Source: Octopus vulgaris
Taxonomy: Eukaryota
Length of the DNA: 64,000 nt
Direction: 5' to 3'
Assembly: GCA_951406725.2 (NCBI GenBank)
Contig: OX597839.1
Location: 36,084,001 to 36,148,000 of the forward strand
Notes under the pieces: generated by a model
The model's database searches: none
The model's input: the letters and a program-made list of their open reading frames with translations, nothing else
Told to the model about the DNA's origin: nothing
Translations under genes and position numbers: made by a program
Shown: positions 2,892 to 60,128 of the stretch, in pieces
How positions within the stretch are numbered: position 1 is the stretch's first letter
How the letters are laid out: each line of letters opens with the position of its first letter

Positions 2892-2929
2892 TCTTTCTGT
2901 TGAAGAGCGTAGGCTCGAAATGTAAAAGA
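2892..2929 (+). ncRNA. Minimal type-I hammerhead-like motif, variant core (family H1), in a ~165 bp dispersed element (~2860-3025)
   Basis: tcttt-CTGTTGA-A-gagc(gtag)gctc-GAAA-tg-TA-aaaga. Stem I is tcttt/aaaga, stem II is gagc/gctc, and stem III is 1 bp. Confidence 0.65.
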
Positions 2930-3697
2930 CTTTTTCTATTTCTATTCCTTAGCGCTATACTAATACATTTGTTTGTTTGTACTCCACCTGCCTTCGTCTT
3001 CTGTTTATTTTCGTAAACTTTCCTTATATATATGTGTGTGTGTGTGTGTAATCTTTCTTTCTTGACTTGACTACCGACCGCCATCATTTCTTGTATCCAT
3101 CTCTTGTGTTCCTGCCTCAAGGCTTTCACCCTATACACGCCAGCTCAATTTGATTCACACTCACTAGTCGAAAGACACCTGTTGTTATATTCTTGTTGTT
3201 TGTATTCGTAATGGTGTACCATGTTCTCCGTCTTATGTCTTTGTAACCGTACACATTCACTTGCTTTCTTACAAAGAATCTAATGCTCTTAGCTTAGACT
3301 TTTTGGGAGCAACTAGACTTGAACAGTCTCAAGTGTAACTACCCGAAACTGTAAGGACAATTTGGAAACTTGACTGATGACTTGTCCTTCTATTTGTTAT
3401 TTTTCCTGTCCACTTCTGTATCGTTTATTTGTCCGGGTGTTTTATTATTCTCTATTGCATTTTTCTCCCATTATATATTATATGTATTAAAGGTAGAACA
3501 TAAAAACACAACAAATGGAAACCGCCAAAACACAACGTGCAGAAAAAAGGACGACAGCACGACAACGGCAAAGCGGACGAAACAAGATGCACGGATCATT
3601 CACAGCCAATTCCCTCTTCAGTCAAAGTCCAGAATGTCCACATAGTTTCGCCCATCCATATATAGATATGCTTCAAATGACTGAAACAAGTAAAAGA

Positions 3698-3750: not shown

Positions 3751-4154
3751 TTACTCTTTTTACTTGTTTCAGTCACATGACTGTGGCCATGCTGGAGTAC
3801 CGCCTTTAGTCGAGCAAATCGACCCCAGGACTTATTCTTTGTAAGCCTAGTACTTATTCGATCGGTCTCTTTCGCCGAACCGCTAAGTTACGGGGACGTA
3901 AACACACCAGCATCGGTTGTCAAGCGATGTTGGGGGGACAAACACAAACATATACACACACAATACATACACACACACACACATATATATACGACGGGCT
4001 TCTTTCAGTTTCCGTCTACCAAATCCACTCACAAGGCTTTGGTCGGCCCGAGGCTATAGTAGAAGACACTTGCCCAAGGTGCCACGCAGTGGGACTGAAC
4101 CCGGAACCATGTGGTTCGTAAGCAAGCTACTTACCACACAGCCACTCCTACGCC
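3750..4154 (-). mobile_element. tRNA-derived SINE family A (octopus OR/OK-type, CORE-like segment), full length
   Basis: Head ggcg(c/t)aggagtggctgtgtggtaag..ccgggttcagtccc carries A/B boxes, followed by caccttgggcaagtgtctt, an internal (TA)n/(TG)n and an (AAAAGAGT)n tail. More than 20 related copies occur in the window. Confidence 0.9.
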
Positions 4155-5049: not shown

Positions 5050-6865
5050 CAATAAGGAGCAAATAGTTCAGAAATTATTTGCAAAGATACTATTAACTTT
5101 ATTATCGTCTATAGTAACAATTAAATTATTAATAACACAATCAATAATATAGGCGAATGCAGCCCCACCACCACCACCAAAAGCATTAAATAGCTGAAGG
5201 ATTAAAATTTATATGAATCAAAGGACATACTGAGTGACATAGTCAGTATGTCCTTATATAGATATCATTAGCAAAGATATCAATGACAGGGTAATAACCG
5301 TCCTTAAGTCTAAAATTAGATTAGCTCCCTGGTCTCATACCCAGGAGATGGTTGAATGGTTCTAGATTCTAGAAATTAATAAAACTAGTAAATTCTTGCA
5401 ACTTGATATAGAGAGCTACTATACCACTATCAACCCAAGCATTCTCAAAGCCATGATTTTTAGCATGAAAAATTCCAATTTGTCCCGACACGAAATAGAT
5501 ATTATTCTTGTCATGCGAGCCACTCTAGTATATTTTGATGGTACACTATGGAGTAGATTAGATAGGGAAAATGCATTTGATATAGCAATGGGCTCACACG
5601 ATTCTGCTCAAGCCAGTAACCTAATCAGACAGAATATATATCCTTTCATTAATCCAGTCTTCTTTCCTGAAGTAACAGGGGGTCTATATAAAGATGATGT
5701 CTTATTTTCCTAGACAGAAGTAGTAAAGTACAGTTAGAAAGGCATACGAAAAATTTCTTTCAACTTTTCAAAAATTTAGGACAAAACATTTCTATAGGTA
5801 AGGATTATCGTAGAGTGAATTTTCTTGATGCTACCTTCTATCTTGTTACTGGATTATTTGAACCATTTCATAAACCAAATAATCATATTAAGTACATTAA
5901 TGTAGCATCCAACCATCCACCCTCAATTATACAGGGACTAATTAAGCATATTTCTACTAGAATTTCTACATTATCTGCTACCAGTAAAATTTTCGGATCT
6001 CATGCATCTTATTATAATGATGCTCTATCTAAGGATGGGTACCATCATAGAATTCAATATTTACAAGATGCAGGGCTTAAGCAACACTGATAATTCTTAC
6101 AACTGCGATGCACATCATATATCACCACAACGCTACCATTTTGAGAAATCATTCAGATAAAGAATACAGGCCAGAAAGAATTGGTCATGATCTACCAAAG
6201 AAAACTCATAGACACATGTGACATAGTAATTCATCTGCTTGTTCCAATCCTGTAGAATACACGAGATCAAATAGACCTAACAACAGATATAGGACTCAGG
6301 ATGTCCTCTGGTTCAACCCAATTTTCGGTTTGAATGTTTCAACCAGGATCGCTGGAAAATATTTTGCTGCTTTGGACAAGTGTTTTCCTAAACCCAATCA
6401 GTATCATGCTATTTTTAATTGGCACATCATGAAGGTATCCTATGCTAACTCTGCTAAGTTGGAGCAGCTTATGCATCGCATAAACAACAGCAACATGCGG
6501 CAAAGGTTCAGTAACCCACCTACTGGATCTAGCAAGCATTTACATCTAAATGCCAACCAAGGAGATGTAAACCACATTGATATTCATCAACTTCGACCAA
6601 TTTATAGTAGTAGCAATACTCATGGTACAGCTAGCATGATAACAATGCCGGTAAATGGAATCAGGATTGCCTATATTCAAATAAAAATGATAAATGCTCA
6701 TGCAGAGATAAATCAAAATGTCCTTTGATGAATCTGTGTATGAGTACAAATTTTGTATATAAATGTACTGTGCTCACAAGGGGAGGGTCAACATAAGGCC
6801 CTATGGTGACATTGGGCGGACGGCTGATTCATTTAAGAATTGTTATACAGAATGTTCATTTCCAT
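5050..6865 (+). mobile_element. Decayed Penelope-like retroelement (RT + Zn-linker + GIY-YIG), probably Naiad clade; pseudogenised
   Basis: Collinear PLE motifs across stops and frameshifts: IISKDINDRV..WSHTQEMVEWF (from 5261), FLQLDIESYYTTI, FDIAMGSHDSAQ, GLYKDD (RT core), VNFLD..KPNN..YINVASNHPPSII (5815-6090), WFNPIFGLNVSTRIAGKYF..FPK..IFN..MKVSY (6310-6450), KCSCRDKSKCPLMNLC..FVYKCTV (from 6692), then DIGRTADSFK (degenerate YIG). The 5' boundary is approximate. Confidence 0.9.
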
Positions 6866-13114: not shown

Positions 13115-13276
13115 GGCGCAGGAGTGGCTGTGTGGTATGTAGCTTGTTTACCAACCACATGGTTCCGGGTTCAGTCCCACTGCGTGGCATCTTGGGCAAG
13201 TGTCTTCTACTATAGCCTCGGGCTGACCAAAGCCTTGTGAGTGGATTTGCAGACAGAAACTGAAAGAAGCCCGTCG

Positions 13277-13318
<42 letters not shown>

Positions 13319-13540
13319 CATGTTTGTGTGTCTGTGTTTGTCCCCCTAGCATCACTTGACAGCCGATGCTGGTGTGTTTATGTCCCCGTCACTTAGCGGT
13401 TCGGCAAAAGAGACCGATAGAATAAGTACTAGGCTTACAAAGAATAAGTCCCGGGGTCGATTTGTTCGACTAAAGGCGGTGCTCTAGCATGGCCACAGTC
13501 AACTGACTGAAACAAGTAAAAGAGAGTAAAGAGTAAGAGT
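13115..13540 (+). mobile_element. SINE family A, nested in an older SINE A 3' half (12935-13640)
   Basis: Full head-to-tail match. Older degenerate family sequence continues on both sides. Confidence 0.88.
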
Positions 13541-27330: not shown

Positions 27331-27364
27331 GTGTTGAAGAGCGTAGGCTCGAAACGTGAAAGAC
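27331..27364 (+). ncRNA. H1 hammerhead-like motif, 5' decayed (element ~27305-27435)
   Basis: gTGTTGA-A-gagc(gtag)gctc-GAAA-cg-TG-aaaga, followed by the family tail ctttc..gagcgtcaaactaataca. Confidence 0.5.
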
Positions 27365-30342: not shown

Positions 30343-30706
30343 GTGTGTGTGTGTGTGTAGCTATGTATATACACCTTCTTGACTTACGACCGAGTTCCAT
30401 TCCGACTGACAGGATGTAAGTCGATCTGGTAGTATGTCGGATTTATATTTTTCAGTAGCAGGGTAGTAGAATAAGTGCTACGCTTACACAGAGTAAGTCC
30501 TGGGGTCGATTTGCTCGACTAAAGGCGGTGCTCCAGCATGGCCACAGTCAAGTGACTGAAACAAGTAAAAGAGTAAAATAGTATATATATATATATATAT
30601 ATATATATAACGGGAAGGTTTACGAAAATAAACAAAAGACGAAGGCAGGTGGAGTACAAACAAACAAATGTATTAGTATGGCGCTCAGGAATAGAAATAG
30701 AACAAG

Positions 30707-30744
30707 TCTTTTACATTTCGAGCCTACGCTCTTCGACAGAAAGA
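30707..30744 (-). ncRNA. H1 hammerhead-like motif (element ~30610-30810)
   Basis: Minus strand tcttt-CTGTCGA-A-gagc(gtag)gctc-GAAA-tg-TA-aaaga. The flanking element closely matches 2860-3025. Confidence 0.65.
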
Positions 30745-42553: not shown

Positions 42554-42612
42554 TATTTCTTTTTGTTTTCGTTCTTTTTCTTATCTCTTCACTGCCTTTT
42601 CTGATGCTTTTC

Positions 42613-42650
42613 TTTTTCTGAGAGAGGACTAGTGTCCGAAACGTCAAAGA
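42613..42650 (+). ncRNA. Divergent H1-related hammerhead-like motif with covarying stem II and GUC site
   Basis: ttttt-CTGAGAGA-ggac(tagt)gtcc-GAAA-cg-TC-aaaga, followed by cttt..gtgttaaactaatac, similar to the H1 tail. Confidence 0.6.
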
Positions 42651-43022
42651 CTTTTAATCTTTTTAAGTGTTAAACTAATACGACATTTCTTAAAACTTGT
42701 CTCTCCTGCGTTGCCCTCATTTATGCTTATTGTCAAATACACACACACACTCACATACACACTTGCACAGACACTTATATAAATATGTATATGTAAACTC
42801 ATTATTTATATTATAATTCATGATTTATATTATTTTATTTTTTCTCCAGTGCCAGTTCTGCTGCTGAAATAAGAAGTCGGCAAATTGAAGGATTGCAAGT
42901 TCAATACCACTTTAAACCAATCACTGAACTCTATATTGTTTCAGTTAAATTTATCCTGGAAAGAATAGGTGTCAATATTCTTTTAGAGCCCTTCCTCCCA
43001 AAGAACCCATTGTATATGTATA

Positions 43023-43419
43023 TATTTCTTTATTGCCCACAAGGGGCTAAACACAGAGGGGACAAACAAGGACAAAGGGATTAAGTCGATTACATCGACC
43101 CCAGTGTGTAACTGGTACTTAATTTATCGACCCCGAAAGGATGAAAGGCAAAGTCGACCTCGGCGGAATTTGAACTCAGAACGTAGCGGCAGACGAAACA
43201 CCTATTTCTTTACTACCCACAAGGGGCTAAACACAGAAGGGACAAACGGATTAAGTCGATTACATCAACCCCAGTGCGTAACTGGCACTCAATTTATCGA
43301 CCCCGAAAGAATGAAAGGCAAAGTCGACCTCGACGGAATTTGAACTCAGAACGTAACGACAGACGAAATACCGCTAAGCATTTCGCCCGGCGCGCTAACA
43401 TTTCTGCCAGCTCGCCGCC
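43023..43419 (-). mobile_element. SINE family B, head plus two tandem units
   Basis: Head ggcggcgagctggcagaa at the right end. The internal junction on the minus strand is aaagaaata|ggtgtttcgtctgcc. Confidence 0.9.
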
Positions 43420-43512
43420 TTAACCAACTTAGTCTTAAATATCCTGACTGACCTAAGTTACTTTCCCATTGTACCCGATAGTCAACATACCCATCGTACC
43501 TGATAGTAACAT

Positions 43513-45499: not shown

Positions 45500-45712
45500 T
45501 ACTCTCTTTTACTTGTTTCAGTCATTTGACTGCGGCCATGCTGGAGCACCGCCTTTAGTCGAGCAAATCGACCCCGGGACTTATTCTTTGTAAGCCCAGT
45601 ACTTATTCTATGGGTCTCTTTTGCCGAACCGCTAAGTGACGGGGGCGTAAACACACCAGCATCGGTTGTCAAGCAATGCTAGGGGGACAAACACAGACAC
45701 ACAAACAGACAC

Positions 45713-45743
<31 letters not shown>

Positions 45744-45914
45744 CATATATACGACAGGCTTCTTTCAGTTTCCGTCTACCAAATCCACTCACAAGGCATT
45801 GGTCGGCCTGGGGCTATAGCAGAAGACACTTGCCCAAGATACCACGTAGTGGGACTGAACCTGGAACCATGTGGTTGGTTAGCAAGCTACTTACCACACA
45901 GCCACTCCTGCGCC
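45500..45914 (-). mobile_element. SINE family A
   Basis: Full match to the family. Confidence 0.92.
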
Positions 45915-49667: not shown

Positions 49668-49689
49668 ACACAAATATATATATATAAAA

Positions 49690-50286
49690 GGCGGCGAGCT
49701 GGCAGAACCGTTAGCCCGCCGGGCGAAATGCTTATCGGTATTTCGTCTGCCGCTACGTTCTGAGTTCAAATTCCGCCGAGGTCGACTTTGCCTTTCATCC
49801 TTTCGGGGTCGATTAAATAAGTACCAGTTACGTACTGGGGTCGATATAATCGACTTAATCTGTTTGTCTGTCATTGTTTGTCCCCTCTGTGTTTAGCCCC
49901 TTGTGGATAGTAAAGAAATAGGTATTTCGTCTGCCGCTACGTTCTGAGTTCAAATTCCGCCGAGGTCGACTTTGCCTTTCATCCTTTCGGGGTCGATTAA
50001 ATAAGTACCAGTTACGTACTGGGGTCGATATAATCGACTTAATCTGTTTGTCTGTCATTGTTTGTCCCCTCTGTGTTTAGCCCCTTGTGGATAATAAAGA
50101 AATAGGTATTTCGTCTGCCGCTACGTTCTGAGTTCAAATTCCGCCGAGGTCGACTTTGCCTTTCATCCTTTCGGGGTCGATTAAATAAGTACCAGTTACG
50201 TACTGGGGTCGATATAATCGACTTAATCTGTTTGTCTGTCATTGTTTGTCCCCTCTGTGTTTAGCCCCTTGTGGGCAATAAAGAAA
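49690..50286 (+). mobile_element. SINE family B, head plus three near-identical 184-bp tandem units
   Basis: ggtatttcgtctgccgctac recurs at 49737, 49921 and 50105. Confidence 0.93.
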
Positions 50287-60048: not shown

Positions 60049-60090
60049 CGAGGACAGGTTATTAGTTTGACGCTTCGGAAAATGAAAAAG

Positions 60091-60128
60091 TATTTTACGT
60101 TTCGAGCCTACGCTCTTCCACGGAAAGG
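60091..60128 (-). ncRNA. H1 hammerhead-like motif (element ~60055-60180)
   Basis: Minus strand ccttt-CCGTGGA-A-gagc(gtag)gctc-GAAA-cg-TA-aaata. Confidence 0.55.

What the first reader, a model, noticed from the sequence alone, without database searches (positions are those of the whole stretch)
42613..42650. Divergent copy gives in-window covariation support for the hammerhead fold
SEEN: here stem II is ggac-tagt-gtcc rather than gagc-gtag-gctc. The two inner base pairs are swapped with pairing fully preserved. GAAA-CG-UC-aaaga and the downstream aaactaatac tail are retained, and the cleavage triplet is the canonical GUC. The core reads CUGAGAGA, which has A6 but is still 8 nt long. INFERENCE: selection acted on RNA structure in the source elements, and sister subfamilies solve the 8-nt core in different ways.
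Basis: partly seen in the sequence, partly recalled or inferred. Interest (0 to 1): 0.7.

Follow-up and report, generated by a model that had tools for sequence, protein, structure and literature searches.

The report
Fossil hammerhead from extinct Penelope lineage
This is a decayed copy from an older sister lineage of a jumping-gene family whose tail carries a known kind of small, probably self-cutting RNA (a minimal hammerhead); its swapped stem is shared by that whole lineage, its odd core letters are found in this copy alone and are likely damage, and the real surprise is a young, abundant sister family that has changed a normally conserved core letter.

Summary
The sequence is as described. 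The GGAC/GTCC stem II is a real subfamily trait: 156 genome matches against 10 for the reversed control, with flanks homologous to the window's GAGC/GCTC copies. The CUGAGAGA core is not a subfamily trait. It occurs in 1 of 82 matches (this copy), while 56 of 82 read CUGANGAA, the published consensus of Penelope-like-element (PLE) minimal hammerheads, whose eighth nucleotide is the known extra base after A9. Copies of this subfamily average 21% from consensus and lose core bases as fast as flank bases, so they are neutral fossils. The stem swap is one event between two lineages, and in-window covariation alone is not significant (40 of 500 shuffles). Sister lineages sit in sense behind RT/GIY-YIG PLE ORFs; no ORF was found attached to GGAC copies (0 of 20). 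What is unusual lies next door: the GAGC-GTAG family has 20,091 exact matches, 94 of the first 100 with U at position 6, and 29 of 29 young endonuclease-linked copies carry it. The GGAC lineage helps show A6 is ancestral. Cleavage is untested. The scan has already noted PLE hammerheads, some with altered cores, elsewhere in this genome.

The parts
42556..42740 (+). 5'-truncated 3' end of an old PLE-related subfamily (about 185 nt; ends approximate), between a (TA)n run and a (CA)n run
   Evidence: 39 other BLAST matches at 71-89% identity covering query positions 12-216; 80% identical to the subfamily consensus
42613..42617 (+). stem I, 5' strand (T-run)
   Evidence: sequence; pairs with 42646-42650, 4 Watson-Crick pairs and 1 U-G
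42618..42625 (+). damaged core CUGAGAGA; subfamily consensus CUGAUGAA
   Evidence: 1 of 82 matches; 0 of 28 aligned relatives share it
42626..42637 (+). stem II GGAC / loop UAGU / GUCC, the subfamily's diagnostic stem
42638..42645 (+). GAAA, palindromic helix III remnant (ACGU) and GUC triplet; predicted cut after 42645
   Evidence: sequence; layout of PMC4209133 supplement consensus
42646..42650 (+). stem I, 3' strand AAAGA (consensus AAGA; one extra A in this copy)
42672..42681 (+). conserved 3' tail motif shared with the GAGC-GTAG family
2897..2930 (+). sister-family copy, core CUGUUGAA (U at position 6)
27331..27364 (+). sister-family copy, core GUGUUGAA (decayed), G at the cut position
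30706..30739 (-). sister-family copy, core CUGUCGAA
59478..59511 (-). sister-family copy, core and stem II decayed
60090..60123 (-). sister-family copy, core CCGUGGAA
60800..60833 (-). sister-family copy, core CUGUGGAA

Best explanation
The stretch is a 5'-truncated, decayed copy from an old dispersed subfamily, likely the 3' end of an extinct Neptune-type Penelope-like retroelement, whose source carried a minimal type I hammerhead motif (core CUGAUGAA, stem II GGAC/GUCC, palindromic ACGU) that would cut its RNA after GUC as a dimer. Shown: the subfamily, its consensus, its homology to sister lineages, the sense position of the motif behind RT/GIY-YIG ORFs in those sisters, and core decay at the flank rate in inserted copies. 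Inferred: that the GGAC lineage had its own ORF; that the two stem II pairs were exchanged once, by four transitions through G-U intermediates, under selection in replicating source elements; that CUGAGAGA arose after insertion (loss of one T and gain of one G makes a short GA run, which suggests slippage) and impairs cutting. Dimer cleavage is taken from PMC4209133 and was not tested here.
For: Subfamily: 156 matches vs 10 control; 82 vs 0 with CTGA required, of which 56 NGAA, 6 other NGAN, 20 broken, 1 GAGA (hand count). Consensus from 28 BLAST relatives, self and L050 left out. Neutral decay: non-CpG core mismatches 30 of 279 vs flank 140 of 1165 (p 0.61; six polymorphic or CpG flank columns left out), CpG sites in the motif 30 of 111, whole core intact in 8 of 28, stem II fully paired in 14 of 28. 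Flank-only tree of 124 copies: 31 of 32 GGAC rows, this copy among them, on one side of a 0.58 branch, support 92/97. Between lineage sequences gathered without the motif as query, core 14-16 of 16 identical against flanks 42-47 of 62-67; p 0.012-0.029 in 4 of 6 pairs, 0.10 and 0.26 in the other two. ORF link in sisters: intact 1008-aa RT + CxxxxCxxC + GIY-YIG-like ORF in 5.9-6.2-kb units with the motif in each flanking repeat (4 of 4 regions), and 10 of 16 older endonuclease hits with a sense motif 0.97-2.0 kb downstream; 29 of 30 for the U6 family. One GGAC locus is an outward-facing inverted pair (L095), the PLE arrangement described in PMC8557442. Perreault 2011 reports low activity for an insertion after A6; Frangieh 2024 reports loss of activity when C3-G8 is broken: either reading of CUGAGAGA falls near one of these.
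Against: No endonuclease or RT remnant was clearly attached to GGAC copies: 0 of 20 with about 5.8 kb upstream (one weak hit belonged to another PLE family 3.4 kb away) and only one weak hit (independent E 0.12) among 44 short and 4 longer upstream regions. The 3' flank of this copy is not significantly similar to the intact 1008-aa element's flank (811 of 1000 shuffles); the link runs through the GAGC-GTAG family. The tree branch is not starred, 0% of bootstrap trees needed a single label change, and three long-branch rows fall on the wrong side. Pfam support for the long ORF is weak (RVT_1 E 0.002, under the cut-off); Neptune assignment rests on the linker motif, not on a tree. No cleavage or RNA-end data.
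Confidence: 0.88

Rival explanations
1. CUGAGAGA is a heritable, working alternative 8-nt core (CUGA, two bases at position 7, GA) used by a small sub-lineage.
For: C3, U4, G5, A6 and a G-A before G10.1 can all still be drawn; stem II, GAAA and GUC are intact in this copy, whereas only 8 of 28 relatives keep a whole core.
Against: 1 of 82 matches; 0 of 28 relatives; the copy is 20% from consensus, like its siblings; a natural insertion after A6 had low activity (PMC3088659 passage). The pattern needs an intact stem, so decayed sisters with this core could be missed.
Confidence: 0.04
2. The stem II swap arose by one template-switch event in which one arm was copied from the other, so perfect pairing needed no selection on the swap.
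For: Only one lineage-level event is seen; such events restore pairing by mechanism (own knowledge, recalled).
Against: All four changes are transitions that can pass through G-U pairs; copying one arm still needs two prior changes; stem I also changes with pairing kept across lineages (C-G, U-A, G-U or G-C at the outer pairs); among 29 loci not chosen for pairing, 59 of 87 inner cells pair vs 48.9 shuffled (7 of 5000).
Confidence: 0.12
3. What source elements conserve is a fold used with the element's own protein (binding or assisted folding), and fast cutting is dispensable; the motif works like a hammerhead in shape more than in rate. This can hold together with the best explanation.
For: A young, intact family spread with U6 and tandem arrays carry C4 (6 of 8 motifs in L214-L217). 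In an Anolis PLE, cleavage needed the protein and catalytic mutants did not affect insertion in vitro (PMC11167929 passages). An earlier unchecked note reached a similar view (e1-8672774).
Against: The U6 family keeps C3, U4, G5, G8, A9, G12, A13, A14, A15.1, U16.1 and two CpGs while position 7 takes all four bases and the cut position is A or U in the group consensuses: this is the pattern that catalysis predicts. The groups were picked by patterns containing the core, which biases that view.
Confidence: 0.3
4. A chance hairpin in low-complexity DNA, unrelated to the H1 family.
For: Folding z-score -0.21; no Rfam hammerhead match shown.
Against: Dispersed family with E-values to 2e-21; flank homology to H1 consensuses; 7,617 genome matches to the generic motif vs 8 control.
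Confidence: 0.01

Closest known systems
Minimal type I hammerheads in the pseudo-LTRs of metazoan Penelope-like elements (Cervera and de la Pena 2014, PMC4209133; read: main text parts 1-2 of 4, supplement file 2 part 2 of 3 plus a term search; supplement file 1 not searchable)
   Same: U-rich 5' flank, short stem I, CUGANGAH core with an extra base after A9, G10.1-C11.1 pair, GAAAN-palindrome-NUH, thousands of dispersed truncated copies, several families per genome with compensatory changes. The supplement lists GGAC/GUCC-type stems for oyster and coelacanth and the same C G U C ending for many species.
   Different: No octopus entry (0 hits in the searchable supplement). Stem II is 4 bp, shorter than the 7-8 bp noted for Schistosoma. 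This copy breaks the consensus core. None of the 44 rows seen in that alignment has U at position 6.
Neptune/Nematis-type EN+ PLEs (Craig et al. 2021, PMC8557442; read: 12 passages)
   Same: RT, CX2-5CxxC linker, C-terminal GIY-YIG endonuclease, partial tandems, inverted 5' copies, insertion at microsatellites, hammerhead near the 3' end.
   Different: Shown here for sister lineages only; clade not placed by a tree; 3' UTRs of 0.8-2.9 kb rich in CA or CT repeats.
Anolis Poseidon PLE hammerhead (Frangieh et al. 2024, PMC11167929; read: 7 passages)
   Same: Minimal hammerhead in the pseudo-LTR, C3-G8 dependent.
   Different: There the ORF starts in stem II; in the intact element here the open frame begins about 270 nt after the upstream motif.
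Natural hammerhead core variants (Perreault et al. 2011, PMC3088659; read: 11 passages)
   Same: Natural A6C, insertion after A6, U4C and U3-A8 variants, with reduced or retained activity.
   Different: A6U was not in the passages seen; those variants were single phage or metagenome examples, not a lineage of some 20,000 copies.
Animal non-LTR retrozymes (Li, Clavereau, Pollet 2026, bioRxiv 10.64898/2026.07.22.740005; read: abstract and outline only)
   Same: Non-coding hammerhead-bearing sequences related to PLE pseudo-LTRs.
   Different: Retrozymes are tandem arrays; this copy is single and its subfamily mostly dispersed.

Membership tests
PLE minimal type I hammerhead | Strand order stem I - core - stem II - GAAA - helix III - NUH - stem I | tested here: met
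PLE minimal type I hammerhead | Core CUGANGAH (this copy) | tested here: not met
   CUGAGAGA at 42618-42625; the copy is therefore filed as a relic, not as a member
PLE minimal type I hammerhead | Core CUGANGAH (subfamily consensus) | tested here: met
   CUGAUGAA from 28 relatives; 62 of 82 matches fit CUGANGAN
PLE minimal type I hammerhead | G10.1-C11.1 closing pair and paired stem II | tested here: met
PLE minimal type I hammerhead | Palindromic minimal helix III and NUH triplet | tested here: met
   ACGU then C
PLE minimal type I hammerhead | Self-cleavage as a dimer | not testable with these tools
   no bench data; only assembled contigs were available
Neptune-type PLE 3' end | RT plus GIY-YIG ORF upstream in sense, GGAC subfamily | tested here: inconclusive
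   0 of 20 long and no clear hit in 48 other upstream regions; old truncated copies are expected to lack it
Neptune-type PLE 3' end | RT plus GIY-YIG ORF upstream in sense, homologous sister lineages | tested here: met
Neptune-type PLE 3' end | 5' truncation, inverted pairs, microsatellite neighbours | tested here: met
   variable 5' ends, inverted pair L095, (TA)n and (CA)n beside this copy
Neptune-type PLE 3' end | Placement in the Neptune clade by RT phylogeny | not tested
   linker motif only
Non-LTR retrozyme | Head-to-tail array of hammerhead-bearing monomers | tested here: not met
   single copy in the window; only a few close pairs in the subfamily (L038, L061)

The most novel reading that the evidence does not exclude
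This fossil lineage anchors a natural allelic series of PLE hammerhead cores in one genome: ancestral A6 (extinct GGAC lineage and living sisters), U4C in young tandem arrays, and a derived A6U core that has been carried through several amplifying sub-lineages to about 20,000 exact copies and is fixed in a currently young, intact element. A6U is a functional natural variant, tolerated in the dimeric or protein-assisted form with the extra A after A9, that CUGANGA-based searches cannot see; if instead it does not cut, PLE mobility is shown not to need cleavage.
Probability: 0.45. Interest if true: 0.6.

Novelty: new member of a known kind. Interest (0 to 1): 0.33.

Why it matters
The flagged copy is ordinary: families of PLE minimal hammerheads with compensatory stem changes were described in 2014, and its odd core is private. 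Its use is as an outgroup. It shows that the motif's core and two CpGs were held constant across lineages whose flanks differ by a quarter to a third, while inserted copies decay freely, and that A6 is the ancestral state. That makes the U6 family a derived change in a successful element. What PLE hammerheads do for transposition is still open (PMC8557442, PMC11167929), and these matched natural cores allow a direct test.

Tried and rejected
Rfam scan: only microsatellite-driven miRNA matches among the 150 shown. The repeat finder was swamped by microsatellites. First ORF lead rejected: the RT/endonuclease in L093 lies between two antisense motifs, but only 4 of 30 copies of that family had a motif within 1.5 kb, at varied distances and strands, so these are chance neighbours. 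Second lead rejected: the endonuclease in L094 belongs to another old family with its own long-stem motif. Search for an ORF attached to GGAC copies failed (one search timed out). Sequencing runs: no RNA holder listed. Laying contigs of 4 of the 21 runs: one contig of organism A covers 42601-42990 with 3 other letters, of which only 42881 is listed, and no contig from the other organisms spans the core at this locus, so the age of the lesion stays open. Lunse et al. 2017, on small PLE hammerhead variants, is not held; I saw only its citation in a review, and it may already list A6U or position-7 insertions. Literature searches for A6U: 'hammerhead + A6U + core' gave one twister paper; motif strings gave nothing relevant in the 15 of 56 listed; 'hammerhead ribozyme + octopus' and 'Penelope + Neptune + octopus' gave only Craig 2021 as relevant. 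Look-ups in earlier scan findings by words and by sequence returned nothing.

Full report
Observation. The window holds six other copies with a GAGC-GTAG-type stem. In their alignment the two inner stem II pairs change on both sides in this copy only; that alone is reached by 40 of 500 shuffles, and the isolated 38-mer folds no better than shuffles. So the in-window evidence is real but thin. The window lies in a 2.8-Gb, microsatellite-rich genome; earlier scan notes call it octopus-like, which I did not test.

Is it a subfamily? The exact 20-mer has 2 matches, but the stem with a free loop has 156 against 10 control, and the 216-base region finds 39 other places at 71-89% identity among 40 scored of 133 candidates. 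Twenty-eight aligned relatives (self excluded, L050 dropped because it does not cover the motif) give a consensus with core CUGAUGAA, stem II GGAC/GUCC, GAAA-CG-UC and a 3' stem I strand AAGA. With the last four core positions left free, 82 matches appear: by hand count 56 NGAA, 6 other NGAN, 20 broken, and GAGA once, at this locus. The CUGAGAGA core is private.

Are the copies under selection? No. Non-CpG core positions mismatch in 30 of 279 cells and flank positions in 140 of 1165 (p 0.61); CpG sites, including G12, mismatch in 30 of 111; 8 of 28 copies keep the whole core and 14 of 28 a paired stem II. Mean distance from consensus is 0.21, against 0.04-0.14 for the GAGC groups. Core A positions were somewhat better kept than flank A positions (6 of 140 vs 41 of 385), which may reflect recovery bias, since the motif was part of the query.

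Was there selection in the sources? A tree built from flanks only (124 copies, 146 columns) puts 31 of 32 GGAC rows on one side of a long branch, support 92/97, with three long-branch strays; the label needs 4-5 changes against 29 for shuffles, and one origin is not ruled out. The swap is thus best read as one event. Across four lineage sequences gathered by flank, upstream or endonuclease queries (the GGAC one by BLAST with the whole region), 14-16 of 16 core positions are identical while flanks share 63-76% (significant in 4 of 6 pairs, which are not independent). Stem I changes with pairing largely kept. Among 29 loci chosen only for an intact core and a non-A second stem base, inner stem cells pair in 59 of 87 against 48.9 shuffled (from 225 matches); some of these belong to unrelated hammerhead families.

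What carries the motif? The generic pattern has 7,617 matches against 8. Most copies are about 200 bases, end at (TA)n and have variable 5' ends. Walking upstream from a longer copy led through 1.5 kb of CA-rich sequence to a GIY-YIG-like ORF in sense. That endonuclease found intact 1008-aa ORFs with RT motifs and a CxxxxCxxC linker, in tandem units flanked by the motif, and 10 of 16 older hits with a sense motif downstream. The GAGC-GTAG family links to a related endonuclease (57-64% identical) 750-900 bases upstream. For the GGAC subfamily itself no ORF was found; its link is the shared 3' flank and an inverted pair at L095. Two earlier ORF leads were rejected.

Mechanism. From Cervera and de la Pena 2014: such motifs lack a stable helix III, pair through the palindrome with a second copy, and cut slowly as dimers; the base between positions 9 and 10.1 is a listed conserved trait, and families with compensatory changes inside one genome are described. 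The source of this copy would have worked that way (inferred). This copy probably does not: read with G8 kept it has an insertion in the A6-N7 stretch, a kind of change that had low activity in Perreault 2011, and read without an insertion it loses the C3-G8 pair, whose disruption abolished activity in Frangieh 2024; a lone copy also has no partner in cis.

The more interesting neighbour. All six GAGC-type copies in the window have U at core position 6. Genome-wide the pattern with positions 6 and 7 free has 20,091 matches; in the first 100 listed, all from one chromosome end, position 6 is T in 94, A in 3 and C in 3, and position 7 takes all four bases. The position-7 classes have partly distinct flanks. 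An endonuclease query from this family returned 150 scored hits at 99-100% identity, some in frames over 1,000 codons; of 30 fetched, 29 kept the 3' end and all 29 read CUGUUGAA. A6 is found in the GGAC lineage, in the other GAGC lineages and in basal members of this family, so U6 is derived (the base of that family is unresolved). I found no report of natural A6U in the searches or in the rows seen, but the most relevant paper (Lunse 2017) could not be read, nor supplement file 1 of the 2014 paper.

Verdict. Observation confirmed; interpretation partly supported. The flagged copy is a relic of a new member of a known kind. Its stem is lineage-level evidence for the fold, its core is damage, and its value is as the outgroup for the A6U question.

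Noticed in passing
window 2897, 27331, 30739, 59511, 60123, 60833; L301-L330: A6U core fixed in a young, intact PLE family with 20,091 exact motif matches; position 7 varies over all four bases.
   Followed up: partly
L214-L216 (G000:C8:23385000-23394900; C10:97805500-97825300): Young 6.2-kb tandem PLE units whose six motifs read CCGACGAA (U4C), while L217 reads CUGACGAA; stem I is weak in this family; 3' UTR of about 2.9 kb, mostly CA-rich.
   Followed up: no
L093 about 6120-6165 (+), and L099-L127: Another very young PLE family (150 scored hits at 95-100% identity) has in its 3' UTR a hammerhead-like motif with a U3/A8 core, a 2-bp stem II and a CCGG palindrome; untested.
   Followed up: no
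L094 4850-4915 (-), L128-L157: Old PLE family in which a hammerhead-like motif with a long, irregular stem II overlaps the end of the endonuclease frame; mostly decayed.
   Followed up: partly
L085, L220, L224, L226, L229, L235, L241: A further hammerhead family with unrelated flanks and a GGCUG/CAGCC-type stem II; three loci have PLE protein remnants nearby.
   Followed up: no
L095 4373-4536; L259/L260; L208: Inverted pairs of motif-bearing ends, typical of PLE insertions.
   Followed up: partly
window 3758-4137, 13246-13528, 45500-45908, 43062-43420, 49687-50286: Two other dispersed repeat families of 170-280 bases in many copies, SINE-like by size; not examined.
   Followed up: no
L189 (antisense frame of 355 codons); L050: A frame with tandem C2H2 zinc-finger repeats in L189 and a frame resembling a C2 domain in L050 (both by eye); host genes beside the insertions.
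   Followed up: no
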